A DNA stretch of 64,000 nucleotides from Escherichia coli (GTDB taxonomy: Bacteria > Pseudomonadota > Gammaproteobacteria > Enterobacterales > Enterobacteriaceae). Location: NCBI RefSeq assembly GCF_036507355.1, contig NZ_AP027877.1; one strand, given 5' to 3'. This document shows positions 2,565 through 58,144 of the stretch, one piece after another; positions within the stretch are counted from its first letter, which is position 1; every line of letters starts with the position of its first letter. Made by a program: the position numbers and the translations under genes. The notes under the pieces are model-generated. The model had not been told where the DNA came from. It did not search any database and was given only the letters and a program-made list of their open reading frames with translations.

Positions 2565-2904
2565 TACCGTTGTCTCTCGTCTAGGTTTACTCCTGATAGA
2601 AAGTCATCGGCATTTGACGGTAATTACTTACGACTAAAAGCCTCTTTGCGTCACATTTTTACAACAATTATTGCAGAGAAGATTAATGCCATTGGAATGA
2701 AGAGAGTAACGAATGGTTAAACTGGCTAACCCGAATGACGAAAAATTCTGGAAAACAGCACGCAATTTCGTCAGGTGATTATTTTCGTCCCTAAGGAAAC
2801 CACATAGGATGCTCACGGGTGCCTGAGACTTTCTGTTTTCAGGCTAACCGGGAATCAGAAAGACGAAGGCCCCGACCGATATTTCTATCAACCGAGGCCA
2901 ACGA

Positions 2905-3112
<208 letters not shown>

Positions 3113-3357: not shown

Positions 3358-3601
3358 ATAACCTCCATGGTTTATCGAATCTTATGTTCGATTTGAACGT
3401 TATACGCTGGTTTATTTTGATACCGTTGATGAGATCAAAGATCGGGTGAATTGATTAAAAATAAGCCAGATGGACGTATGGGCAAGGATTATGGTTTTAT
3501 TTGTCATACAAATAAATATAATAGGCGCTTCCGATGTAGACCCGTATTCTTCGCCTGTACCACGGGTCGGTTTTAGTACAGGCGTTTTCTTTAAATATCC
3601 T

Positions 3602-31708: not shown

Positions 31709-31737
31709 ATGCTCTGGATAAGGATTATCCAATTCTA

Positions 31738-31846
31738 AAAAAAAGCCCGGACGACTGTTCGGGCTTGTCTTTTTATATGTTGGAAAATCAGTGGCAATGC
31801 AATGGCCCAACAGAAAATAAAATCTGTGACAATAAAGGCATATAAC
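31738..31846 (-). ncRNA. micC: MicC small RNA (porin regulator), divergent from ompN
   Basis: Minus strand reads GTTATATGCCTTTATTGTCACAGATTTTATTTTCTGTTGGGCCATTGCATTGCCACTGATTTTCCAACATATAAAAAGACAAGCCCGAACAGTCGTCCGGGCTTTTTTT, matching MicC as I recall it, ending in a hairpin plus T-run. Confidence 0.8.
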
Positions 31847-32073
31847 CCGCGCAGAATAACGTATAGAAAATTAAAAGTATAATTTTTATTTTGTATGTAT
31901 TATCTTCGATACATTCACCAGACTTATTATCATTTCAGAAGAATTATTTGATTAAGGTTTTACTTAAGGCGTAACAAATGATATTTATCGGCTAACTGAA
32001 CTTCTCCTTTAGGATGTTTTCACTCCCCGAAATGGGGATAAAAGGCAAATAAAATAACTAAAGGATTTATTCA

Positions 32074-34248: not shown

Positions 34249-34833
34249 TTACTCCCTGACAGGGTTCGTAGGCCACTCAATATCAGGTGCAGTTGATGTA
34301 TCAACACGGTTCAGCAACACCCGATACTTTTTCCAGGCTTCCAGCAATGAGGTTTCTTCCTCCGTTGCGATTTCCAGATCCACAGCATCCTGAAGTGGCG
34401 CAATATGCTCACTGGCTACCTGCATCAGGCTGTTTTTTGTTTCTTCCGCCTCTCGGATCCGGAACAGTTTTTCTGCTTCTGCATCTTTCACCCAGGCTGT
34501 GCCGTTCCACTTCTGAAACTCCCCTTCCGGCGATAACCAGGTAACATTTTCCGGTAACGGACCGAGTTCAGAAATAAATAACGCGTCCCCTGACGCTACG
34601 TCATAAACCGTTTTACCCCGATGGTCTTCAACGAGATGCCACGATGCCTCATCACTGTTGAAAACAGCCACGAAGCCTGCCGGAATATCTGGCGGTGCAA
34701 TATCGGTACTGTTTGCTGGCAGACCTGTATGAGGCGGAATATATGCATCACCTTCACCAATAAATTCATTAGTTCCGGCCAGCAGATTATAAATTTTTAT
34801 GGTCCGTGGTTGTTCACTCATTCTGAATGCCAT
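34249..34833 (-). CDS. tfaR: Phage tail fibre assembly protein
   Basis: 194-aa ORF directly downstream of the tail-fibre remnant; Tfa-like sequence; prophage context. Confidence 0.7.
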
Positions 34834-42346: not shown

Positions 42347-43330
42347 ATGAGAAAAATTATGAGATATGACAATGTTGGTGATGCTGCCAACTTACTGATT
42401 TAGTGTATGATGGTGTTTTTGAGGTGCTCCAGTGGCTTCTGTTTCTATCAGCTGTCCCTCCTGTTCAGCTACTGACGGGGTGGTGCGTAACGGCAAAAGC
42501 ACCGCCGGACATCAGCGCTATCTCTGCTCTCACTGCCGTAAAACATGGCAACTGCAGTTCACTTACACCGCTTCTCAACCCGGTACGCACCAGAAAATCA
42601 TTGATATGGCCATGAATGGCGTTGGATGCCGGGCAACAGCCCGCATTATGGGCATTGGCCTCAACACGATTTTACGTCACTTAAAAAACTCAGGCCGCAG
42701 TCGGTAACCTCGCGCATACAGCCGGGCAGTGACGTCATCGTCTGCGCGGAAATGGACGAACAGTGGGGCTATGTCGGGGCTAAATCGCGCCAGCGCTGGC
42801 TGTTTTACGCGTATGACAGGCTCCGGAAGACGGTTGTTGCGCACGTATTCGGTGAACGCACGATGGCGACGCTGGGGCGTCTTATGAGCCTGCTGTCACC
42901 CTTTGACGTGGTGATATGGATGACGGATGGCTGGCCGCTGTATGAATCCCGCCTGAAGGGAAAGCTGCACGTAATCAGCAAGCGATATACGCAGCGAATT
43001 GAGCGGCATAACCTGAATCTGAGGCAGCACCTGGCACGGCTGGGACGGAAGTCGCTGTCGTTCTCAAAATCGGTGGAGCTGCATGACAAAGTCATCGGGC
43101 ATTATCTGAACATAAAACACTATCAATAAGTTGGAGTCATTACCGACAATGTTAAACCATGTCCATTTTGTGGTTGTCCATCAGTAACGGTGAAAGCCAT
43201 TTCAGGATATTACCGAGCGAAGTGTAACGGATGCGAATCCCGAACCGGTTATGGTGGAAGTGAAAAAGAAGCACTCGAAAGATGGAATAAACGAACCACT
43301 GGAAATAATAATGGAGGTGTTCATGTATAA
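42347..43330 (+). pseudogene. ralR: lar/ralR (restriction alleviation; type I TA toxin) interrupted by IS1
   Basis: 5' codons (MRKIMRYDNV) at 42347..42376 and the remainder (…KPCPFCGCPSVTVKAISGYYRAKCNGCESRTGYGGSEKEALERWNKRTTGNNNGGVHV*) at 43145..43330, separated by IS1 with a duplicated GACAATGTT. Confidence 0.7.
42377..43144 (+). mobile_element. insAB: IS1 (768 bp), copy 3, simple insertion; insA 42432..42707, insB' 42626..43129
   Basis: Terminal IRs present; perfect 9-bp target-site duplication GACAATGTT at 42368..42376 and 43145..43153. Confidence 0.9.
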
Positions 43331-43532
43331 AATTACCGCCACTATTGAAAAGGAAGGTGGCACTCCTACTAACTGGACAAGATATTCAAAATCTAAACTA
43401 ACGAAATCAGAATGCGAAAAAATGCTCTCAGGTAAAAAAGAAGCAGGCGTTTCCAGAGAGCAGAAAGTAAAACTGATAAATTTTAATTGCGAGAAACTTC
43501 AGTCCTCGAGAATTGCATTGTATTCAAATTAA
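43323..43532 (+). CDS. ydaC: Small prophage protein
   Basis: 69-aa ORF MYKITATIEKEGGTPTNWTRYSKSK… whose start overlaps the lar stop; symbol from position between lar and xisR. Confidence 0.6.
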   Translation: MYKITATIEKEGGTPTNWTRYSKSKLTKSECEKMLSGKKEAGVSREQKVKLINFNCEKLQSSRIALYSN

Positions 43533-46178: not shown

Positions 46179-47552
46179 TTATTTTAATAACCGCACCCGG
46201 CACGTTTTTCCTTTAATCTTCCCGCCCTGTAACTGTTTCCATGCTTTATGAGCAACAGCCTGACGGACCGCGACATAGACATGCGCCGGATGCACGGCGA
46301 TTTTGCCAATATCTGCGCCATCAAGCCCGATATCTCCTGTCAGTGCACCTAATACATCACCCGGGCGCATTTTGGCTTTTTTCCCGCCATCGATACACAA
46401 CGTTGCCATTTCTGCTTCCAGCGTCACAATGGAACTATTAGCTGGCGGCGTTTGCCAGTTAAGTTTTATCTGCAACATGTCAGAAATGATATTGGCCCGC
46501 TGTGCTTCTTCCGGAGCACAGAAACTGATCGCCAGACCGCTATTTCCTGCACGAGCTGTACGACCGATGCGATGTACATGAACTTCAGGGTCCCACGCCA
46601 GCTCAAAGTTCACCACCAGCTCAAGCGATTTAATATCCAGACCACGCGCAGCAACATCAGTCGCGACCAGTACACGGGCGCTACCGTTAGCAAAACGTAC
46701 CAGGGTCTGATCGCGATCGCGTTGCTCCAAATCGCCGTGTAATGACAATGCACTTTGCCCTACTTCATTCAGCGCGTCGCAGACAGCCTGGCAATCTTTT
46801 TTGGTATTGCAAAACACCACGCAAGAGGATGGCTGATGCAAGCTTAATAACCGTTGCAACAGAGGAATTTTGCCTTTACTGGATGTCTCATAAAATTGTT
46901 GATCAATGGGTGGCAAAGCATCTGTTGAGTCAATTTCAATCGCCAAAGGATCGCGTTGCACTCGTCCGCTGATTGCAGCGATGGCTTCCGGCCAGGTTGC
47001 TGAAAACAGAAGCGTCTGTCGAGATGCAGGCGCAAAACGGATGACATCATCAATGGCATCGCTAAATCCCATATCCAGCATGCGGTCGGCCTCATCCATC
47101 ACCAAAGTATTCAGCGCATCCAGTGATACCGTGCCTTTTTGCAAGTGATCCAGCAAACGACCCGGCGTTGCCACGATAATATGCGGCGCATGTTGCAACG
47201 AATCACGCTGCATACCGAACGGTTGACCACCGCACAACGTCAAAATTTTGGTATTTGGCAGAAAACGCGCCAGCCGACGCAATTCACCTGCCACCTGATC
47301 CGCCAGTTCACGCGTAGGACACAGCACTAAAGCCTGGGTTTGAAATAGCGACGCATCAATTTGCTGTAACAAGCCGAGGCCAAAAGCCGCCGTTTTGCCG
47401 CTGCCGGTTTTCGCCTGCACGCGAACATCTTTTCCGGCAAGGATCGCCGGAAGCGCGGCGGCCTGCACCGGCGTCATGGTTAAATAACCCAACTCATTAA
47501 GGTTCGTGAGTTGGGCGGGAGGCAAAACATTCAGGGTAGAAAAAGCGGTCAC
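46179..47552 (-). CDS. dbpA: DEAD-box ATP-dependent RNA helicase (23S rRNA specific)
   Basis: 457-aa ORF with Walker A (AKTGSGKT), DEAD box (LVMDEADRML), SAT and HRIGRTAR motifs. Confidence 0.9.
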   Translation of the reverse strand: MTAFSTLNVLPPAQLTNLNELGYLTMTPVQAAALPAILAGKDVRVQAKTGSGKTAAFGLGLLQQIDASLFQTQALVLCPTRELADQVAGELRRLARFLPNTKILTLCGGQPFGMQRDSLQHAPHIIVATPGRLLDHLQKGTVSLDALNTLVMDEADRMLDMGFSDAIDDVIRFAPASRQTLLFSATWPEAIAAISGRVQRDPLAIEIDSTDALPPIDQQFYETSSKGKIPLLQRLLSLHQPSSCVVFCNTKKDCQAVCDALNEVGQSALSLHGDLEQRDRDQTLVRFANGSARVLVATDVAARGLDIKSLELVVNFELAWDPEVHVHRIGRTARAGNSGLAISFCAPEEAQRANIISDMLQIKLNWQTPPANSSIVTLEAEMATLCIDGGKKAKMRPGDVLGALTGDIGLDGADIGKIAVHPAHVYVAVRQAVAHKAWKQLQGGKIKGKTCRVRLLK

Positions 47553-47581
47553 AATCTATTCTCGTGGTCATCGACGCAAAG

Positions 47582-47755
47582 TTAGCAGGCGCGTATCCTC
47601 GCAGATCTACGCTCACGATGCGACAATTTAATCGGTTCTTCATCGGGTGGTGGGTCAGGCATGGGTTGCGGGCGAGGGATCGGATCGGGCACTGGAACAG
47701 GATCGCCAGGAATCGGTTCAGGGACAGGAATTTGCAAATAAATAAGTGTCGTCAT
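47582..47755 (-). CDS. Small proline-rich ORF (57 aa) immediately upstream of dbpA, unidentified
   Basis: Manual translation: MTTLIYLQIPVPEPIPGDPVPVPDPIPRPQPMPDPPPDEEPIKLSHRERRSARIRAC; GGAGGG Shine-Dalgarno about 5 nt upstream of the ATG; ends 30 nt before the dbpA start. Confidence 0.45.
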   Translation of the reverse strand: MTTLIYLQIPVPEPIPGDPVPVPDPIPRPQPMPDPPPDEEPIKLSHRERRSARIRAC

Positions 47756-47812
47756 ATTTCCCTCCGGTCATTGGGTGGACTCTTAAAGGGTAGACGCTGA
47801 TAAATAACAGGC

Positions 47813-47934
47813 AAAAAAAAGCCGACTCATCAAAGTCGGCGTCGTACGAATCAATTGTGCTATGCAGTAATTCAAAAAAGGAAGTAAGACAATATGGAGC
47901 GCAACGCCCATCGCTTGACGTTGCATTCACCTGC
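47813..47934 (-). ncRNA. fnrS: FnrS small RNA
   Basis: Minus strand reads GCAGGTGAATGCAACGTCAAGCGATGGGCGTTGCGCTCCATATTGTCTTACTTCCTTTTTTGAATTACTGCATAGCACAATTGATTCGTACGACGCCGACTTTGATGAGTCGGCTTTTTTTT, matching FnrS as I recall it, with terminal hairpin and T-run. Confidence 0.8.
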
Positions 47935-47969
47935 AAGAGAGATATTGCCCTGAATGGGTAGAGAGTTTA

Positions 47970-47983
47970 TTGACTTCGCTCAA
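47970..47983. promoter_or_regulatory. FNR-type binding site (TTGAC-N4-CTCAA) centred about 42 bp upstream of fnrS
   Basis: ttgacttcgctcaa palindrome resembling the FNR consensus TTGAT-N4-ATCAA, at the class II activation distance. Confidence 0.6.
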
Positions 47984-48029
47984 ACTTTGCGGCGTTTTTG
48001 TATACAGACAGCCGGAAAAATTGCTTTTG

Positions 48030-49034
<1,005 letters not shown>

Positions 49035-49267
49035 TTATTTTGTAGTCTAGCCTTCTGGCCCTGTTACGCAACATCTCATCACCCCATTACCCTGAAATGA
49101 TTAATAAAATTCTGTCTAAATTGAATACAAAAAGCAAAATGCTTTTCCGTATACAAACCGTGTGAAGTGTTAAATAGCGTCTATCATTATCAGAATTATC
49201 TGATCATATGACGAGGCTTTTTTGCGATCGGATAGCAACAAAAATTGATAAAAATAATGGGATCTCA

Positions 49268-50500
49268 ATGATTACGCACAACTTCAATACCCTGGACTTA
49301 CTCACCAGTCCTGTCTGGATCGTTTCGCCCTTTGAGGAACAGTTAATTTATGCCAATAGCGCGGCGCGACTGTTGATGCAAGACCTCACGTTTAGTCAGC
49401 TACGAACCGGTCCCTATTCCGTCTCCTCACAAAAAGAACTGCCGAAATACCTCTCCGATCTGCAAAACCAACACGATATTATCGAAATCCTCACTGTTCA
49501 GCGTAAAGAAGAGGAAACAGCATTAAGCTGTCGGCTTGTTTTGCGAGAGCTGACAGAAACAGAACCGGTGATTATTTTCGAAGGTATCGAAGCGCCGGCA
49601 ACGCTGGGGTTAAAAGCCAGTCGCTCGGCAAATTATCAGCGCAAAAAACAAGGTTTTTATGCGCGCTTTTTTCTGACTAACTCTGCACCAATGTTGTTGA
49701 TTGACCCGTCACGAGATGGACAAATCGTCGATGCTAACCTCGCCGCGCTCAATTTCTATGGTTATAACCATGAAACGATGTGCCAGAAACATACCTGGGA
49801 AATAAATATGCTCGGGCGTCGCGTCATGCCTATCATGCATGAAATTTCGCATTTACCCGGCGGTCATAAACCTTTGAATTTTGTTCATAAACTGGCGGAT
49901 GGATCTACTCGTCATGTGCAGACCTATGCCGGACCGATTGAAATTTATGGCGACAAGCTCATGTTATGTATTGTGCATGATATTACTGAGCAAAAACGGC
50001 TGGAGGAGCAGCTGGAACATGCTGCTCACCATGACGCGATGACCGGATTACTGAATCGGCGACAGTTTTATCACATTACGGAACCAGGCCAAATGCAGCA
50101 TCTCGCCATCGCTCAGGATTACAGCTTGTTGCTCATCGACACCGATCGTTTTAAACACATTAACGATCTCTATGGGCATTCTAAAGGTGATGAGGTGTTA
50201 TGCGCCCTCGCCCGCACCCTCGAAAGTTGCGCTCGCAAAGGCGATTTGGTGTTTCGTTGGGGAGGCGAAGAGTTTGTCTTATTGCTACCAAGAACCCCAC
50301 TGGATACCGCGCTTTCGCTGGCTGAAACTATCCGCGTAAGCGTGGCAAAAGTGAGTATTTCGGGCTTACCACGCTTTACCGTCAGCATTGGTGTGGCGCA
50401 TCACGAAGGAAATGAAAGCATCGATGAACTGTTTAAACGCGTTGATGATGCTTTGTATCGGGCGAAAAATGATGGACGCAACCGCGTGCTGGCGGCATAA
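49268..50500 (+). CDS. dgcM: PAS-GGDEF diguanylate cyclase
   Basis: About 410-aa ORF from the internal ATG (MITHNFNTLDLLTSPVWIV…) with PAS regions and a GGEEF active site (RWGGEEF). Confidence 0.8.
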   Translation: MITHNFNTLDLLTSPVWIVSPFEEQLIYANSAARLLMQDLTFSQLRTGPYSVSSQKELPKYLSDLQNQHDIIEILTVQRKEEETALSCRLVLRELTETEPVIIFEGIEAPATLGLKASRSANYQRKKQGFYARFFLTNSAPMLLIDPSRDGQIVDANLAALNFYGYNHETMCQKHTWEINMLGRRVMPIMHEISHLPGGHKPLNFVHKLADGSTRHVQTYAGPIEIYGDKLMLCIVHDITEQKRLEEQLEHAAHHDAMTGLLNRRQFYHITEPGQMQHLAIAQDYSLLLIDTDRFKHINDLYGHSKGDEVLCALARTLESCARKGDLVFRWGGEEFVLLLPRTPLDTALSLAETIRVSVAKVSISGLPRFTVSIGVAHHEGNESIDELFKRVDDALYRAKNDGRNRVLAA

Positions 50501-50559
50501 GCCGCGGATGCGTCTCGAGATCAACGACTGCGCTTAGCGTGGCGCTCCCAGTTTTCTTG

Positions 50560-51084
50560 CTACGCCTGCGCCGTTTTACGTAGTGCGACGTAACACGCCC
50601 CGCTGCCGCCATGATGCGGTAGCGCGGTGCAATATGCCTGAACATCATCAAATTCGGTCAGCCAGCGCGCCACATAGCTGCGGACAATATTGGCATGCGA
50701 TTTATCATCCCGCCCTTTACCATGAATAATCAGCACGTTACGCAAACCATCCGCCAGGGCTTGTTGAATAAAACTGAACACCATTTTGCGGCACTCTTCC
50801 ACCGGCTGGCGCAAAAGATTCAGGCTCGCCTGTTGCGGATATTTACCACTGCGCAGCTTATCCAGCACCCCATGTTGCAACCCTTCCCGCCGAAACTCCA
50901 GCGGCTGACTTAGTGGGATGATGTCGAGAAATCCGGTGGTGAGGAAATTATCAAGCTGCAGCGTGTCGATACGCTGCGGCGCACGTTGGTTACGCGTTGG
51001 ATGCCAGTGGACATCGGTAGCACGTTTCAGCGGCTGGACATCTTCCATGGCGTCAAGAAACAGCGATTTGTCGTCAAGGTTCAT
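50560..51084 (-). CDS. smrA: Smr-domain DNA endonuclease
   Basis: 174-aa ORF with a C-terminal Smr-like region (…LIIHGKGR…); synteny next to dgcM. Confidence 0.65.
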   Translation of the reverse strand: MNLDDKSLFLDAMEDVQPLKRATDVHWHPTRNQRAPQRIDTLQLDNFLTTGFLDIIPLSQPLEFRREGLQHGVLDKLRSGKYPQQASLNLLRQPVEECRKMVFSFIQQALADGLRNVLIIHGKGRDDKSHANIVRSYVARWLTEFDDVQAYCTALPHHGGSGACYVALRKTAQA

Positions 51085-51278
51085 GTAACCTCCTATGCAC
51101 CTTCACACGTCGTGATTCAGACGGGTTAATTGTTCATACTTACTGCATCGTTCCCTTCACAGATTGAAACAATACTCTACTTCATACCTGTGAGTATCTG
51201 CGCAGGCGGGGCATTTTATACTAGCCTGTTAGCAGTATCGAACAGTTTAGCCCGAGTTTAATTCAGCACAGGCTCCGA

Positions 51279-52792
51279 TCAGGATGATTTATTCATAGCA
51301 GGAACCAACAAAAATGCGATAAATAACAGACCACTGATTAGCAGAAAGGTATCCGAAAATGCCATAGTTTGCGCCTCCCTCAGCATCAATTGACTCAATA
51401 ATTTGGTTGAAGCCAGTATTTCCGATGTCTGGTCACTTCCACTGCGATTAAAAAATAAAGCACTTCTGGAAATGAAGTCATTCACCGTATGGGGAACAGA
51501 AACCATTTTTTCACCCATTCTCGAAAAATGAAAATTAGTTCGATTATTGAGAATAGAGCCACACAGGGCAATACCGATCGCGCCCCCAAGATTACGTGTT
51601 AAATTAAATACACCAGAGGCTAACTTCAGCCGTTCTTTTGGAATTCCCCCCAGCGTTAATGTTACGATGGGGGCCATCGCAAACTGCTGCGAAATCCCTC
51701 TAATTGCCTGTGGAAACAGTAACTCCTGCCATCCCCATTCGTGGGTTATAGGGGTAAAAAGATACATTGAAAACACAAATCCGCCCAGCCCCGCCATCAA
51801 CAGCCATCGCAGATTTATTTTTTTACTTAACCAGAAGTAAAAGGGAACAGAAAATAACTGGAAAATACCTGTTGTGCAAACGGCAAAACCTATCTCTTCG
51901 GCATTTAATCCGCGAATCTGCCCCAAAAACACAGGTATTAAATATACAGTAGAGAATATCCCAACTCCTCCAGAAAAAGAAAAAAACATCCCAGAGTGAA
52001 ATTTTTATCCTTAAAAGCATGAAGATCCATTATCGGATTGGATATTGTAAGTGTACGCGCAGCAAATAAAATAAAACTCACCAATGCCAGAACTGATGTC
52101 AGCAAAATAGTATTATCATCCAGCCATCCCCAGCGCGCTCCTTCTTCAAGGGTATATTCCAGACATCCCAGTGTCATGGCCAACAGGATAATACTCGGAT
52201 AATCAGCAACTTTCAGTAAAGAGAGATCAGGTTTATCAAAATTAACCAGAAAAGGAATACTCAAAACTAAATATATGCCAGGTAATATATTGATATAAAA
52301 TAGCCATCGCCAGTCGAGGTTATCAGTGATCCAGCCCCCCAGAGTTGGCCCTAGCGTCGGTGACAGTGAGGCCAGCGCACTGACTACCGCAGCAGCCAAC
52401 CCCAACTCTTTACCCTGGTAATAAATAAACGCCGTCGTGAAAACTAAAGGGATCATGGATGCGCCAGCAGCTCCCTGTAAAGCACGAAACAAAATCATGA
52501 TCTGAATATTCCATGCAAGTCCACACGCGATACTCATTAAAGTAAATATTCCCGCGGATAGAGTAAAAAGCCAACGAGTGGAAAATACCCGTGACAGCCA
52601 CCCAGAGAGCGGAATAACAATAATCTCAGCAATTAAATAGCTGGTCTGAAGCCAGGCCATTTCGTCTTTACCTGCGGACAGACCACCACCTATTTCATTT
52701 AGGGATGACGATACAATTTGAATATCAAGCTGAGCAATAAATAATCCCATACACATACTGGCGAAAGCAATATGTTTACGCATAGACATCAT
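51279..52792 (-). pseudogene. EmrB/QacA-family MFS efflux transporter, disrupted by a frameshift
   Basis: Two ORFs in different frames (51938..52792 N-terminal half, 51279..51989 C-terminal half) overlapping by about 50 nt; both multi-TM MFS-like. Confidence 0.65.
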
Positions 52793-53820
52793 CTCTCATC
52801 AACACTGACGGTGACGGACAGTCCCGGGCGAAGAAGTTGCTTTAATTCCTTTGCGTCGTCAAATGCAATCCGTACCGGGACACGCTGAACAATTTTGGTG
52901 AAATTGCCAGTGGCATTTTCTATCGGAATCAAGCTGAAACTGGCTCCTGTCGCTGGGGAAAGGCTTTCAATGTGACCGTGAAACACTTCCCCTTTGAGAA
53001 TATCAGCACGGATCTCAGCCTTCATTCCTGGCTTCATTCCCGCTATTTGGTTTTCTTTATAATTTGCATCAACCCACAACTCACTGACTGGTACTAGTGA
53101 AACTAACGATGTGCCGCCTTCCACCCAACTGCCTGTATGGGCGCTGCGGTTTGCGACAATGCCATCAATCGGCGCACGAACAAGGGTATATTCCAGATCC
53201 AGTAGTGCCTGAGTCAAAGCGGCCTGAACTTCTTCGATACTCGCACGTACGTTTTCTTCCTGAGCAGATAAAACTGCCAGCCGTTGCTTCTCCACCAGGA
53301 AATCGTTCGCGGCTTTGCGCTCCTTTGCTGCGACCTGCTGGTAGTCAAACCTGGCGTTATCAATAATTTGTTGCGATATTGCCGCTGATTGTGCGAGTTT
53401 TTCATAACGTTCAGTATCTCGCAGGCGCTTTTGCTCCTCATGTTTTACTGCCTGCCATGTTTCACTGGCACTTTGAATTATCGACTGCTGCATCGCAATA
53501 GTGGCTTGAATGCTTTCGAGATTGGCTTTGCTACTTTTTATTTTTGCCTCAAGCCTGGCGACATTTGCACGATAATCCCGATCATCGAGACGCAGGATAA
53601 TATCGCCTTTTTTTACGCTCTGATTATCGCGCACCTCTATAGCAGAAATATAACCAGAAACTTTACTTGCCACCGTGGTGATATTACCACCAATGTAAGC
53701 ATCATCCGTCGTCTGTATAAATCTTCCTTTGCTTACCCACCAGATAAAAAAGACAACGCCAGTCAAAAGAATACCGATCGCTACCACCCCAATAAGCTGT
53801 TTTTTAGAAATTATCATCAC
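52789..53820 (-). CDS. HlyD/EmrA-family membrane fusion protein
   Basis: 343-aa ORF with N-terminal TM anchor, long coiled-coil region and a C-terminal beta domain; stop overlaps the MFS start. Confidence 0.75.
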   Translation of the reverse strand: MMIISKKQLIGVVAIGILLTGVVFFIWWVSKGRFIQTTDDAYIGGNITTVASKVSGYISAIEVRDNQSVKKGDIILRLDDRDYRANVARLEAKIKSSKANLESIQATIAMQQSIIQSASETWQAVKHEEQKRLRDTERYEKLAQSAAISQQIIDNARFDYQQVAAKERKAANDFLVEKQRLAVLSAQEENVRASIEEVQAALTQALLDLEYTLVRAPIDGIVANRSAHTGSWVEGGTSLVSLVPVSELWVDANYKENQIAGMKPGMKAEIRADILKGEVFHGHIESLSPATGASFSLIPIENATGNFTKIVQRVPVRIAFDDAKELKQLLRPGLSVTVSVDER

Positions 53821-53913
53821 TCTTTACACCGTATATATCCGGAAACTTGCATACGTCATATTTAAAATTTAACATGGCTTATTTGATGATTTCTGACAAA
53901 ATACCTACTGTAA

Positions 53914-54729
53914 ATGACAATTACACTGCAACCCAAAGCATCACCAGGGCATCACATTATCGGACTGGATTCGGAACATCTGAATGGAGGTACAGTTCCC
54001 TGGCATAAACATCTCTATGCCCAGTTGCTTTACCCGGCTGAAGGAGTCGTTCGTGTATGGGCTGGAGAAAGCGTCTGGCTAGTCCATGCCAGCAGCGCGC
54101 TTTGGCTGCCCCCACAAATGCCGCATAAGTTTGTTGCGACAGGCAACGTACTTTTAAAAACCGTACTGGTTTCAGAAGCGGAAAGTGAAACGCTGGGAAC
54201 AGTTTGCTTCATGACGGGTATTTCACCCCTGTTAAGGGAATTACTAATTGCAATTAACCAACTTCCACCGTCGCAAAGTACCACAGATAAACAACAGTTA
54301 CGTTTTTCAGCCCTCGAGACACTGATACTTCAGGAAATAAAAATGGGGGTGAAAATGTCACTTGAACTCCCTTGGCCAAATGATGAGCGGCTACAGCAGC
54401 TTTGTGAGAATTTGCTAAACAACCAAGGGTATCTGCCAACACTGGATAATCTAGCGGATAAAATTAACGTCAGTAGCCGTACACTCATGCGCTTATTTGT
54501 TAAAGAGACGGGATTAACATTTCGCCACTGGGTTCAGCAAATGCACGTTATATCTGCAGTGACGCTTCTTGATGATGGATATTCGTTGACCAAAATTGCC
54601 CATCGTCTGGGCTATGCCTCAGCTGAATCGTTCGGCAATATGTTTAAGCGTCGAACGGGTTACTCGCCCGGTAAATTTACTCGTCGATTAACGATGCATG
54701 ATTATGCAATCACAAGACAAATGATTTAA
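53914..54729 (+). CDS. AraC-family transcriptional regulator (cupin N-domain plus HTH), divergent from the efflux genes
   Basis: 271-aa ORF with a C-terminal AraC-type HTH (…LTKIAHRLGYASAESFGNMFKRRTGYSPGKF…). Confidence 0.75.
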   Translation: MTITLQPKASPGHHIIGLDSEHLNGGTVPWHKHLYAQLLYPAEGVVRVWAGESVWLVHASSALWLPPQMPHKFVATGNVLLKTVLVSEAESETLGTVCFMTGISPLLRELLIAINQLPPSQSTTDKQQLRFSALETLILQEIKMGVKMSLELPWPNDERLQQLCENLLNNQGYLPTLDNLADKINVSSRTLMRLFVKETGLTFRHWVQQMHVISAVTLLDDGYSLTKIAHRLGYASAESFGNMFKRRTGYSPGKFTRRLTMHDYAITRQMI

Positions 54730-54799
54730 CTTATATTTTCGTGAAATCTGTCACTGAAGAAAATTGGCAACGGATGGGTAAAACCGTTATAACACTGTC

Positions 54800-54894
54800 A
54801 CCGGTCACCAGGACCCCAGGCCGGATTTAAGACGAGGATGCACTGCTGTGTGTACTGTAGAGTCTGGCGGATGTCGACAGGCTCTATTTTTTTA
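54800..54894 (+). ncRNA. mcaS: McaS (IsrA)-like small RNA, variant sequence
   Basis: …GGATTTAAGACGAGGATGCACTGCTGTGTGTACTGTAGAGTCTGGCGGATGTCGACAGGCTCTATTTTTTTAT closely matches McaS as I recall it; the 5' about 25 nt differ but still form a stem. Confidence 0.6.
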
Positions 54895-55272
54895 TTCATT
54901 TTTTAGCTCTGTAAATAACCACATTCTCGCCGGGATTGGGGAATGAGTGACGAGATCAGTGGTGTCTGGCGGCTATCACGCCACAGAATCAAATAACAGA
55001 TAGCCTACGGTAAAATTTCGCTGACTGGAATTATCCCACCCTCGATCCATGTGATGGCTTGCCCTCATTTCTTCAGGCAGAAAAATCAAAAAATCGCTTT
55101 ATGCTATCAAACTGCGACAAACCAGACGCGAAACTGGGTACTTACTATTCGTTAGTCTTGCCCTATCCACTTATCTTTTTGGTGGTATGGCTGCTGATGT
55201 TGCTGGCGTGGTATCTTGTCGGTCTGCCGATAGGTCCGGGTATTTACCCACGTTTGTCTTAAGAGAGAACGG

Positions 55273-55788
55273 ATGCTGAGATTACTTGAAGAAAAAATTG
55301 CCACGCCACTGGGTCCACTGTGGGTGATTTGCGATGAGCAATTTCGCCTGCGGGCGGTTGAATGGGAAGAGTACAGCGAACGCATGGTGCAGCTGCTGGA
55401 CATCCATTATCGCAAAGAAGGCTATGAGCGCATTTCTGCCACCAACCCAGGTGGTTTAAGCGACAAGCTTCGTGAATATTTTGCCGGTAATCTTAGCATT
55501 ATTGATACGCTTCCCACTGCCACGGGGGGGACGCCATTTCAGCGCGAAGTCTGGAAAACACTGCGCACTATCCCCTGCGGGCAGGTAATGCATTACGGCC
55601 AACTGGCTGAACAATTGGGCCGCCCTGGCGCGGCGCGTGCCGTTGGTGCGGCAAACGGATCGAATCCCATCAGCATCGTCGTACCTTGCCATCGGGTTAT
55701 TGGCCGAAACGGCACCATGACCGGATATGCAGGCGGAGTTCAGCGAAAAGAGTGGTTATTGCGCCACGAAGGTTATCTTTTGCTGTAA
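55273..55788 (+). CDS. ogt: Methylated-DNA--protein-cysteine methyltransferase
   Basis: 171-aa ORF with the active site PCHRV. Confidence 0.9.
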
Positions 55789-55982
55789 ACATTAAACAAT
55801 TTGTGCCAGCTTGTTCACACTTTTATGTAAAGTTACCCTTAACAACTTAAGGGTTTTCAAATAGATAGACATATATTTACATCTAATATCGGAATTCTCT
55901 GCTGTTAAGGTTTGCTTAGACTTACTTGCTCCCTAAAAAGATGTTAAAATTGACAAATATCAATTACGGCTTGAGCAGACCT

Positions 55983-56735
55983 ATGATCCCGGAAAAGCGA
56001 ATTATACGGCGCATTCAGTCTGGCGGTTGTGCTATCCATTGCCAGGATTGCAGCATCAGCCAGCTTTGCATCCCGTTCACACTCAACGAACATGAGCTTG
56101 ATCAGCTTGATAATATCATTGAGCGGAAGAAGCCTATTCAGAAAGGCCAGACGCTGTTTAAGGCTGGTGATGAACTTAAATCGCTTTATGCCATCCGCTC
56201 CGGTACGATTAAAAGTTATACCATCACTGAGCAAGGCGACGAGCAAATCACTGGTTTTCATTTAGCAGGTGACCTGGTGGGATTTGATGCCATCGGCAGC
56301 GGTCATCACCCGAGCTTCGCGCAGGCGCTGGAAACCTCGATGGTATGTGAAATCCCGTTCGAAACGCTGGACGATTTGTCCGGTAAAATGCCGAATCTGC
56401 GTCAGCAGATGATGCGTCTGATGAGCGGTGAAATCAAAGGCGATCAGGACATGATCCTGCTGTTGTCGAAGAAAAATGCCGAGGAACGTCTGGCTGCATT
56501 CATCTACAACCTGTCCCGTCGTTTTGCCCAACGCGGCTTCTCCCCTCGTGAATTCCGCCTGACGATGACTCGTGGCGATATCGGTAACTATCTGGGCCTG
56601 ACGGTAGAAACCATCAGCCGTCTGCTGGGTCGCTTCCAGAAAAGCGGCATGCTGGCAGTCAAAGGTAAATACATCACCATCGAAAATAACGATGCGCTGG
56701 CCCAGCTTGCTGGTCATACGCGTAACGTTGCCTGA
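55983..56735 (+). CDS. fnr: Anaerobic global regulator FNR (CRP/FNR family)
   Basis: 250-aa ORF from the internal ATG with the N-terminal Cys cluster (…[16 protein letters not shown]…) and C-terminal HTH. Confidence 0.9.
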
Positions 56736-56886
56736 TTTTTCCGCATAACTCACTATCCTTCTGTCATATCATTAAATTTTTCTGATTTATTGATCTGGCA
56801 GAAGGTTCATCACTGTTTCATTCACCAGATATGGGTTAATCTTTTAATTACAAACTGCGTTGACAGTTGTTGTAAGGAGACCCTGT

Positions 56887-57837
56887 ATGGCTATGTATCA
56901 GAACATGCTCGTTGTTATCGATCCTAACCAGGACGACCAACCAGCATTGCGGCGAGCTGTTTATTTACATCAACGGATTGGTGGCAAAATTAAAGCCTTT
57001 TTGCCGATCTATGACTTCTCATACGAAATGACCACCCTGCTCTCCCCGGACGAACGTACCGCTATGCGTCAGGGCGTCATCAGCCAGCGTACAGCCTGGA
57101 TCCACGAGCAGGCAAAATATTATCTCAATGCTGGCGTTCCCATTGAAATTAAAGTGGTCTGGCATAACCGTCCTTTCGAAGCCATCATTCAGGAAGTGAT
57201 CAGCGGCGGGCACGATTTGGTGCTAAAAATGGCGCACCAACATGACCGTCTGGAAGCGGTGATTTTTACGCCAACGGACTGGCATCTGTTACGCAAATGC
57301 CCAAGCCCGGTGTGGATGGTGAAAGACCAGCCGTGGCCGGAAGGAGGTAAGGCGCTGGTGGCGGTGAATCTCGCCAGTGAAGAGCCGTATCATAATGCGC
57401 TCAATGAAAAACTGGTCAAAGAGACGATCGAACTGGCAGAACAAGTCAACCATACCGAAGTTCATCTGGTTGGCGCTTACCCAGTAACGCCAATTAATAT
57501 CGCGATTGAACTGCCGGAATTTGATCCGAGCGTTTATAACGATGCCATTCGTGGGCAACATTTGCTGGCAATGAAAGCTCTGCGGCAGAAATTCGGCATT
57601 AATGAAAACATGACGCACGTAGAAAAAGGTCTGCCAGAAGAGGTGATTCCTGATTTGGCGGAGCACTTACAGGCGGGGATTGTGGTTCTGGGTACGGTAG
57701 GACGCACCGGTATTTCAGCAGCATTCCTCGGCAACACGGCGGAACAGGTGATTGATCATCTTCGCTGCGATCTGTTGGTCATTAAACCTGACCAGTATCA
57801 GACACCCGTTGAACTGGATGACGAAGAAGACGATTAA
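56887..57837 (+). CDS. uspE: Tandem-domain universal stress protein E
   Basis: About 316-aa ORF from the internal ATG ([15 protein letters not shown]…), two Usp domains. Confidence 0.85.
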
Positions 57838-57886
57838 CGACTCTTCAATAACTGACAAGGCCCGAGTTATCGGGCCTATTTTTTAC

Positions 57887-58144
57887 TTACTGCTCTTCGC
57901 CGCCAAGGAAATAAATTCCCAACGGGATTGCCAGCAACACAGTAAAGACCAGGCTATAAACAAAAATCATCGATGACTGAATCACATACATTGATGTCGT
58001 CCACTCAGACAGCGGAATATTGTACTGTTCTATAACGCCGCCGATAGTCGCGCGAGTCACAACCGACGCCGCAATAATGAAAACCGCCAACAAACCAAAG
58101 AGAAATTTCTTCCCTTTCGCTGACTTCAGTTTCGCCATAATCAT
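57887..58144 (-). CDS. ynaJ: Small inner-membrane protein (DUF2534)
   Basis: 85-aa two-TM ORF; synteny between uspE and ynaI. Confidence 0.7.
   Translation of the reverse strand: MIMAKLKSAKGKKFLFGLLAVFIIAASVVTRATIGGVIEQYNIPLSEWTTSMYVIQSSMIFVYSLVFTVLLAIPLGIYFLGGEEQ

What the first reader, a model, noticed from the sequence alone, without database searches (positions are those of the whole stretch)
54800..54894. McaS-like sRNA with a diverged 5' stem
The 3' two-thirds matches McaS as I remember it, but the first about 25 nt differ (accggtcaccaggaccccaggccgg) while keeping a CCGG…CCGG stem. The 5' region of McaS contributes to target pairing (csgD, flhD) and CsrA binding, so target range could differ in this lineage.
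Basis: partly seen in the sequence, partly recalled or inferred. Interest (0 to 1): 0.35.

Follow-up and report, generated by a model that had tools for sequence, protein, structure and literature searches.

The report
Common McaS allele, not a novelty
This is the ordinary mcaS small-RNA gene in one of the two common E. coli versions: it is letter-for-letter the same as in the well-studied strains CFT073 and E2348/69, where it has already been caught binding its usual targets csgD and flhD.

Summary
Window 54800-54895 (+) is a full-length McaS (Rfam RF00115, 112.8 bits against a threshold of 42). It differs from K-12 at 9 of its first 25 nt, all within nt 6-20, and at only 2 of the remaining 71. 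The 6-bp stem, the 12-nt loop and the loop GGA are kept.

The allele is not unusual:
- Complete E. coli genomes carry two allele classes. The K-12 type is in 3907 genomes and the window type in 1460, of which 1331 are exact over nt 1-40.
- The window's 96 nt are identical to those of CFT073 and EPEC E2348/69.
- Variability of stem 1 was already published (van Nues 2015).

The suggested change in target range is mostly not supported. The csgD seed (nt 39-56), the flhD-pairing loop of stem 3 (nt 71-78) and all four GGA motifs are unchanged. Published RIL-seq in E2348/69 detects McaS with csgD and with flhD. Only a minor contact made by the loop of stem 1 could differ.

One side finding: mcaS lies in a 421-bp segment that is only 81% identical to K-12, while the flanking genes are about 99% identical. 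This segment is linked to an efflux-pump/AraC gene block and to loss of the abg operon.

Verdict: already known, low interest.

The parts
54740..54755 (+). CRP-type half-sites (cGTGA-N6-TCACt) upstream of the mcaS promoter
   Evidence: Read directly. It lies in the 61-nt promoter block, which is 56/61 identical to K-12 inside a segment whose unconstrained flanks are 24% diverged. A CRP element in the isrA/mcaS promoter is reported in the PMC4824073 Suppl. Fig. S2 legend. Function was not tested here.
54764..54793 (+). Core promoter: -35 TTGGCA (54764-54769), 18-nt spacer, -10 TATAAC (54788-54793). The transcript start inferred from the Rfam model is 54800
   Evidence: sequence. The hexamers are identical to K-12, and 4 of the 5 promoter differences lie in the spacer. 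The assignment is inferred from spacing and from the start of the Rfam model.
54800..54895 (+). mcaS (isrA/IS061) small RNA gene, 96 nt
   Evidence: RF00115 full-length hit, 112.8 bits. 96/96 identical to CFT073 and E2348/69.
54801..54824 (+). Stem-loop 1: stem nt 2-7 with 20-25, 12-nt loop ACCAGGACCCCA with GGA at 54811-54813. This is the variable module and the CsrA-binding hairpin
   Evidence: Folding. GGA is unpaired with probability 0.69-0.97. A11, G12, G13, A14, C17 and A19 are invariant in 8 Escherichia alleles. The 5'-most GGA is the main CsrA site according to PMC10729762.
54836..54855 (+). Second CsrA-type GGA (nt 37-39) and the csgD-pairing seed (nt 39-56), within stem-loop 2
   Evidence: Perfect 16-bp duplex with csgD leader nt 52-68. 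Hybridisation energy is -29.6 kcal/mol in both alleles; totals are -16.8 (K-12) and -18.1 (window). The same seed is predicted to pair with espC.
54857..54894 (+). Stem-loop 3 with U-tract, a Rho-independent terminator. Its loop nt 71-78 GAUGUCGA (54870-54877) is the flhD-pairing site
   Evidence: Folding. All 12 pairs are kept in all 11 homologues. The loop pairs with flhD leader 137-145, total -8.8 kcal/mol in both alleles. PMC4824073 assigns flhDC activation to this loop.
54694..55114 (.). Hyperdivergent 421-bp segment holding mcaS: 81% identical to K-12, with flanking core genes at 99.0-99.8%
   Evidence: blastn segments. Divergence by sub-segment: flanks 24%, promoter 8%, stem-loop 1 interior 60%, nt 37-96 2%.
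51095..54693 (.). Gene block absent from K-12: an MFS efflux gene split into two ORFs (51279-52792, -), a HlyD-family gene (52789-53820, -) and an AraC-family regulator (53914-54729, +)
   Evidence: ORFs. Annotation of the same block in SK1144 and CFT073. No hit in K-12; 99.1-99.6% identical to SK1144.
54896..55262 (.). Remnants of abgR (3' end, - strand, 54896-55114) and abgT (~55119-55262, +). abgA, abgB and most of abgR and abgT are deleted, and ogt follows at 55273
   Evidence: Alignment to K-12. Pseudogene annotations in SK1144, CFT073 and E2348/69.

Best explanation
This is the orthologous mcaS gene in the second of two common E. coli allele classes, and it works as McaS does in K-12.

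Shown here from the sequence:
- The transcript folds into three stem-loops.
- Stem-loop 1 displays an AGGA motif in a 12-nt loop.
- Nt 39-56 carry the seed that is perfectly complementary to the csgD leader.
- The loop of stem 3 carries the flhD-pairing sequence.
- Stem 3 with its U-tract forms a terminator.
- A conserved promoter with CRP-type half-sites lies upstream.

Inferred from published work on K-12:
- Transcription is activated by CRP.
- Stem-loop 1 binds CsrA through its GGA. Titrating CsrA de-represses pgaA.
- Pairing of the csgD seed leads to Hfq/RNase E-dependent decay of csgD mRNA.
- The loop of stem 3 activates flhDC.

The 9 substitutions in the interior of stem-loop 1 are turnover at loop and inner-stem positions. 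The only visible constraints there are 'form a hairpin' and 'present AGGA'. The substitutions look concentrated because the whole 421-bp segment is an old, about 24% diverged haplotype in which every other part of mcaS is held constant by purifying selection.

That this exact allele is expressed, sits on Hfq and contacts csgD and flhD is shown by published RIL-seq in E2348/69, not by me.
For: - Full-length RF00115 hit.
- The stem-loop 1 fold is the same in both alleles, and all four GGAs are retained.
- The csgD seed and the stem 3 loop are identical, with equal predicted energies.
- The flhD target site is invariant in a genome carrying this allele.
- GGA sits at nt 11-14 in all 15 homologues from Escherichia, Citrobacter and Pseudescherichia, while the rest of stem-loop 1 varies.
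- Nt 37-96 differ at 1 of 60 positions against 24% in the flanks (Fisher P = 1e-5).
- Census: 1460 window-type and 3907 K-12-type genomes add up to the 5367 genomes that carry mcaS.
- The window's mcaS is 96/96 identical to CFT073 and E2348/69.
- RIL-seq in E2348/69: csgD 5'UTR-McaS 164 chimeras (p = 1.5e-153) and flhD-McaS 37 chimeras (p = 2e-18) (PMC8550237 Table S3).
- McaS is recovered in Hfq pull-downs from UPEC UTI89 (PMC4546395).
Against: - The stem-loop 1 interior is more diverged (9 of 15) than even the local unconstrained flanks (24%; binomial P = 0.003). That could mean more than neutral turnover, although the region was picked after the fact and is tiny.
- A published secondary flhD site overlaps the 5'-most GGA (PMC10729762). 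The K-12 loop's predicted AGGAGA/CCUCCG contact has no counterpart in the window allele.
- C36A removes one pair from stem-loop 2 (-6.1 to -4.3 kcal/mol), which may change how accessible the seed is.
- The primary papers that map the pairing and the CsrA sites (Thomason 2012, Jorgensen 2013) were not available, so site assignments rest on secondary sources and on my predictions.
- No expression or binding data exist for the window's own strain.
Confidence: 0.82

Rival explanations
1. Allele-specific retargeting. The changed stem-loop 1 loop (ACCAGGACCCCA instead of CAGAGGAGACAA) alters secondary base-pairing or CsrA affinity, so strains with this allele regulate flhD or other mRNAs differently.
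For: - A secondary McaS-flhD site is reported to overlap the 5'-most GGA (PMC10729762).
- The K-12 loop AGGAGA is predicted to pair with flhD +8..+13 CCUCCG (total -6.3 kcal/mol; only 2 of 60 shuffled loops are as good). The window loop's best contacts (-4.8 to -5.2) are no better than shuffles (17-22 of 60).
- The window's C-rich loop is predicted to pair with the csgD Shine-Dalgarno region GGGGUUUC (-6.8) and with a second espC site (-5.9). The K-12 loop has neither.
- The stem-loop 1 interior is diverged beyond the local background (P = 0.003).
Against: - All these contacts are short (4-7 bp) and weak, and none is validated.
- The main csgD and flhD seeds are unchanged.
- Both canonical targets are recovered with this exact allele in RIL-seq.
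- The espC interaction is explained by the shared nt 40-53 seed.
- The stem-loop 1 interior differs just as much between every pair of Escherichia species (6-9 of 15), which fits lack of constraint better than directed change.
- PMC4824073 reports that deleting stem 1 had little effect on RNA polymerase binding, and that phylogeny poorly supports extended pairing.
Confidence: 0.12
2. A decaying or non-functional copy. The sRNA gene sits in a degraded locus (abg operon deleted, MFS gene frameshifted) and is drifting.
For: Neighbouring genes are pseudogenised or deleted. One pair is lost in stem-loop 2.
Against: - The promoter hexamers and CRP half-sites are intact.
- Nt 37-96 differ at 1 of 60 positions against 24% in the flanks.
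- The terminator is intact.
- The allele is exact over nt 1-40 in 1331 genomes.
- It is abundant and bound to Hfq in E2348/69 and UTI89.
Confidence: 0.02
3. Artefact of the reader's memory: the sequence is really identical to K-12.
For: None.
Against: Direct alignment with MG1655 shows 11 differences in 96 nt, 9 of them in nt 6-20.
Confidence: 0

Closest known systems
McaS / IsrA / IS061 of E. coli K-12 (Rfam RF00115)
   Same: Length (96 nt), three-stem-loop architecture and terminator. The promoter hexamers and CRP half-sites match. All four GGA motifs are at the same positions. The csgD seed (nt 39-56) and the flhD-pairing loop of stem 3 (nt 71-78) are identical. The gene sits on the smrA side of ogt.
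   Different: Nine substitutions in the stem-loop 1 interior (nt 6-10, 15, 16, 18, 20), plus C36A, which costs one pair in stem-loop 2, and A82G, which turns a U-A pair in stem 3 into U-G. The immediate neighbours are AraC/HlyD/MFS upstream and abg remnants downstream, instead of smrA and abgR.
mcaS of UPEC CFT073 and EPEC E2348/69
   Same: 96/96 identical. Same AraC-mcaS-abg-remnant-ogt arrangement.
   Different: The flanking core genes of the window are closer to K-12 (99.0-99.8%) than to CFT073 (97.2-98.8%). The MFS/HlyD genes are further truncated in CFT073.
CsrB/CsrC-type CsrA-titrating hairpins
   Same: Stem-loop 1 is a short hairpin presenting (C)AGGA in its loop. From general knowledge, this is like the CAGGA(U/A/C)G repeats of CsrB. 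The window's CAGGAC and the CAGGAA of other Escherichia species fit that motif at least as well as K-12's GAGGAG.
   Different: McaS has only two functional CsrA sites and also acts by Hfq-dependent base-pairing. CsrA binding by this allele was not tested.

Membership tests
McaS/IsrA sRNA (Rfam RF00115) | Covariance-model score at or above the curated gathering score, over the full length | tested here: met
   112.8 bits against 42, model positions 1-96 of 96, E = 3.5e-20.
McaS/IsrA sRNA (Rfam RF00115) | Three stem-loops, the last a Rho-independent terminator with a U-tract | tested here: met
   The minimum-free-energy fold (-30.1 kcal/mol) has stem-loops 1, 2 and 3 followed by U7. 92% of cells pair across 11 homologues. 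Helix 3 pairs in 100% of cells, and helix 1 has two pairs changed on both sides. The shuffle controls are only modestly exceeded: 18 of 500 shuffles reach the observed percentage paired and 47 of 500 the covariation score.
McaS/IsrA sRNA (Rfam RF00115) | csgD-pairing seed in stem 2 | tested here: met
   Nt 39-56 are identical to K-12, with a 16-bp perfect duplex to csgD leader 52-68. A csgD-McaS chimera is detected in a strain with an identical mcaS.
McaS/IsrA sRNA (Rfam RF00115) | flhD-pairing sequence in the loop of stem 3 | tested here: met
   GAUGUCGA (nt 71-78) is identical, and its flhD leader target GCGACAUCA is invariant. An flhD-McaS chimera is seen in E2348/69.
McaS/IsrA sRNA (Rfam RF00115) | GGA motifs for CsrA, including one in the loop of stem-loop 1 | tested here: met
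   GGA at nt 12-14, 24-26, 37-39 and 70-72, as in K-12 (sequence). The loop GGA is unpaired with probability 0.69-0.97. Actual CsrA binding cannot be tested here.
McaS/IsrA sRNA (Rfam RF00115) | Conserved promoter with a CRP element; locus next to smrA (ydaL) and ogt/abgR | tested here: met
   The promoter block is 56/61 identical to K-12, with the hexamers and CRP half-sites intact. Gene order is smrA - (MFS/HlyD/AraC) - mcaS - abg remnants - ogt.
McaS/IsrA sRNA (Rfam RF00115) | Expression and Hfq association | not testable with these tools
   Literature only: RIL-seq on Hfq in E2348/69, which has an identical mcaS, and Hfq pull-down in UTI89. There are no data for the window's own strain.

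The most novel reading that the evidence does not exclude
The interior of McaS stem-loop 1 is effectively randomised between the two E. coli haplotypes (9 of the 12 non-GGA positions differ). It is more diverged than the already about 24% diverged neutral flanks. The two versions could be maintained as functionally distinct alleles, for example with different CsrA affinity, loss of the K-12 loop's flhD contact, or gain of a C-rich loop that pairs with Shine-Dalgarno sequences. Each allele is locked to alternative gene content: an efflux-pump/AraC block on one side, the abg operon on the other. The haplotype appears in more than one genomic background.
Probability: 0.1. Interest if true: 0.45.

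Novelty: already known. Interest (0 to 1): 0.12.

Why it matters
It matters little as a discovery. The gene is a textbook sRNA. The allele is present unchanged in over a thousand sequenced genomes, including CFT073 and E2348/69. The variability of its first stem-loop has been published, and interactome data for this exact sequence already exist.

The practical points are modest:
- Work on McaS done in K-12 uses the stem-loop 1 version found in about 72% of complete genomes. About 27%, including major ExPEC and EPEC clones, carry the other version.
- The conservation pattern gives a clean natural mutagenesis map: only the hairpin and AGGA are constrained in stem-loop 1, and everything from nt 37 onward is fixed.
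- The published secondary flhD contact in the stem-loop 1 loop may be specific to the K-12 type.

Tried and rejected
- I tried to read the primary mapping papers (Thomason 2012, PMC3312966; Jorgensen 2013, PMC3672647) and the EPEC paper (Bhatt 2017, PMC5827581). None is held, so the pairing and CsrA sites come from secondary sources.
- The first duplex_subopt scan gave unrealistically long hybrids with positive total energies. I replaced it with a short-window scan that corrects for accessibility.
- I tested for co-variation between the stem-loop 1 loop and the flhD leader. A genome with this allele has T74G in the leader, near a predicted loop contact, but this does not improve the predicted pairing (-5.2 against the K-12 leader, -2.6 against its own). 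Rejected.
- My early idea that the K-12 allele is the derived one and the window allele the ancestral one was rejected. Both are 6-7 of 15 positions away from the outgroup alleles.
- I first took the allele to be lineage-specific to phylogroup B2. This was rejected because the window's flanking genes are closer to K-12 than to CFT073 or SK1144.
- The covariation statistics on 11 homologues are weak, and the Citrobacter stem-loop 1 aligns out of register. They are used only as supporting evidence.
- Literature searches for an explicit description of the two-allele split within E. coli found nothing. The alignment in van Nues Suppl. Fig. S2 is an image, so I could not check it.

Full report
**Observation.** A scan of the whole window against Rfam gives a full-length McaS/IsrA hit (RF00115) at 54800-54895 on the + strand: 112.8 bits against a gathering score of 42, E = 3.5e-20. 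Alignment with MG1655 mcaS shows 11 differences in 96 nt:
- nine lie in nt 6-20, the interior of the first stem-loop (SL1);
- none lies in the CCGG/CCGG arms;
- one is C36A;
- one is A82G.

Both alleles fold SL1 as a 6-bp stem with a 12-nt loop, at -8.3 kcal/mol for K-12 and -8.9 for the window. The inner pair G7-U20 has become C7-G20, and C6-G21 has become U6-G21.

**How common the allele is.** I searched nt 1-40 of each allele against the 5426 complete E. coli genomes.
- The window type is in 1460 genomes, 1331 of them exact.
- The K-12 type is in 3907 genomes, 2380 of them exact.
- Together these make 5367, the number of genomes in which mcaS was found at all.

There are therefore two allele classes, and I saw no sign of intermediates. 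The window type is carried by CFT073, E2348/69, O25b:H4-ST131 and APEC O2:K1. From general knowledge these are phylogroup B2 strains. The window's 96 nt are identical to CFT073 and to E2348/69.

**What is constrained.** I scanned one genome per bacterial species with the conserved 3' core and found 12 loci: E. albertii, E. whittamii, other Escherichia, Citrobacter amalonaticus, Pseudescherichia vulneris and relatives.
- From nt 37 onward the RNA is almost invariant in all of them.
- The 5' third is different in nearly every species, yet every homologue has GGA at nt 11-14.
- Within Escherichia the CCGG arms and A11, G12, G13, A14, C17 and A19 never change.
- Pairwise differences in the SL1 interior are 6-9 of 15 between the major groups. 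The two E. coli alleles are equally far from the outgroups, so neither is clearly ancestral.

This agrees with van Nues et al. [quoted passage not shown] Formal pair counts on 11 homologues are supportive but weak: 92% of cells pair, and helix 1 has two pairs changed on both sides.

**Function of the parts.** According to the literature available to me:
- McaS has four GGAs, of which two bind CsrA, namely the 5'-most one and one overlapping the csgD site;
- the 5'-most GGA also overlaps a reported flhD site (PMC10729762).

My accessibility-corrected pairing scan reproduces the two main sites. McaS nt 39-56 pair with csgD leader 52-68 with a total of -16.8 kcal/mol for K-12 and -18.1 for the window. 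The slight gain comes from C36A weakening stem-loop 2. Nt 71-78 pair with flhD leader 137-145 at -8.8 kcal/mol in both alleles. Both seeds are identical in the two alleles, and all four GGAs are retained.

In a genome carrying the window-type allele, the flhD leader differs from K-12 at six positions, but the target of the stem 3 loop is invariant.

Only the SL1 loop contacts differ. K-12's AGGAGA is predicted to pair with flhD +8..+13 CCUCCG at -6.3 kcal/mol, and only 2 of 60 shuffled loops do as well. The window loop has nothing better than shuffled loops, 17-22 of 60.

**Experimental data for this exact sequence.** The EPEC RIL-seq study used E2348/69. Its Table S3 lists these McaS partners (PMC8550237):

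| Partner | Chimeric fragments | p-value |
|---|---|---|
| csgD 5'UTR | 164 | 1.5e-153 |
| flhD | 37 | 2e-18 |
| espC | 357 and 197 (the two orientations) | 4.4e-92 and 9.8e-11 |
| sbmA 5'UTR | 37 | 1.3e-15 |
| yfbQ-lrhA intergenic region | 38 | 5.1e-12 |
| yncL | 40 | 2.4e-11 |
| glnK | 33 | 0.004 |

Both canonical targets are therefore contacted by this allele on Hfq. The EPEC-specific espC interaction is best explained by the shared nt 40-53 seed, with totals of -9.1 kcal/mol for the window allele and -7.8 for K-12. That target difference comes from accessory gene content, not from SL1. McaS was also recovered in Hfq pull-downs from UPEC UTI89 (PMC4546395). I did not verify which allele UTI89 carries.

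**Why the changes are clustered.** The window is 99.2-99.3% identical to K-12 from dbpA to smrA (46563-51094) and from the abgT 3' end through fnr (55114-58000). The 421 bp in between that align (54694-55114, with mcaS in the middle) are only 81% identical. Divergence from K-12 within that segment:

| Sub-segment | Diverged from K-12 |
|---|---|
| Unconstrained flanks | 24% |
| Promoter | 8% |
| mcaS nt 37-96 | 2% (Fisher P = 1e-5 against the flanks) |
| SL1 interior | 60% (binomial P = 0.003 against the flank rate) |

The SL1 test is post hoc and rests on 15 positions. The cluster is mainly what an old haplotype looks like once purifying selection has held everything else still. SL1 is at or beyond saturation.

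**The haplotype as a whole.**
- The segment is joined on its left to a 3.6-kb block absent from K-12: an MFS efflux gene (split here into two ORFs), a HlyD-family gene and an AraC-family regulator.
- On its right it is joined to a deletion that leaves only remnants of abgR and abgT.
- The 8-kb arrangement is in 1313 genomes.
- Other species have smrA-mcaS-ogt, and short AraC remnants upstream in E. whittamii and another Escherichia suggest the block is old.
- The window's flanking genes are closer to K-12 (99.0-99.8%) than to SK1144 or CFT073 (97.1-98.9%). The block plus mcaS is 98.6-99.6% identical to SK1144. The haplotype therefore occurs on more than one genomic background.

**Verdict.** The functional inference is mostly not supported. 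This is an ordinary, already sequenced and already studied allele of a known sRNA, and the variability of its first stem-loop is published. Two questions remain open:
- whether the SL1 loop makes allele-specific secondary contacts or tunes CsrA affinity;
- why the locus exists as two deeply diverged haplotypes.

I put about 10% on the first of these being functionally meaningful. Interest is low (0.12).

Noticed in passing
window 54694-55114, with flanks 46563-51094 and 55114-58000: mcaS sits in a 421-bp segment only 81% identical to K-12, while the flanking core genes are 99.2-99.3% identical. The unconstrained parts of the segment are about 24% diverged, far above normal divergence within E. 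coli. This implies an ancient or imported haplotype.
   Followed up: yes
window 51095-55114 compared with L005 (SK1144), L023 (CFT073) and L022 (K-12): The MFS/HlyD/AraC block plus mcaS is 98.6-99.6% identical to SK1144, and mcaS is 96/96 identical to CFT073. The neighbouring dbpA, dgcM and smrA are closer to K-12 (99.1-99.8%) than to those strains (97.1-98.1%). The haplotype seems to cross lineage boundaries, by recombination or as an old polymorphism.
   Followed up: partly
window 51279-51989 and 51938-52792 (- strand): The DHA2-family MFS efflux gene is split into two overlapping ORFs (236 and 284 aa), so it is probably frameshifted. The same gene is annotated as frameshifted in SK1144 and truncated in CFT073, which suggests this efflux cluster is decaying in several strains.
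   Followed up: partly
window 54896-55262: Only remnants of abgR (3' end) and abgT remain. abgA, abgB and most of abgR and abgT (p-aminobenzoyl-glutamate utilisation) are deleted, so ogt lies 378 bp after mcaS. Most other species in the scan (E. albertii, E. whittamii, Citrobacter, Pseudescherichia) have mcaS directly followed by ogt with no abg operon.
   Followed up: partly
L024/L025 (E2348/69); PMC8550237 Table S3: In EPEC RIL-seq the most abundant McaS partner is espC, an island-encoded autotransporter toxin (357 and 197 chimeras). I predict it pairs with the same nt 40-53 seed that targets csgD. A weaker second site involving the variant SL1 (nt 11-26, total -5.9 kcal/mol) is predicted only for this allele.
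   Followed up: partly
window 48000-56000: The best match among 5426 complete E. coli genomes is only 99.5% identical (isolates from baboons and calves), and only 51 genomes reach 99%. The window's strain is not closely represented in the collection.
   Followed up: no
window 2817-2968, 3528-3591, 31729-31849, 34292-34490, 43329-43507, 47817-47934: Other Rfam hits above the gathering score: sok antitoxin, RydC, MicC, IS009, RalA (the antitoxin of RalR, which I recall as a Rac-prophage system) and FnrS. All are full-length.
   Followed up: no
L018/L020/L021 (flhD leaders): The flhD 5' leader has allele classes of its own: 2081 genomes are at least 99% identical to K-12 and 3240 are at 95-99%. 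The differences cluster at leader nt 34-37, 54 and 62-82, while nt 83-228 are almost invariant (one A/G at nt 159).
   Followed up: partly
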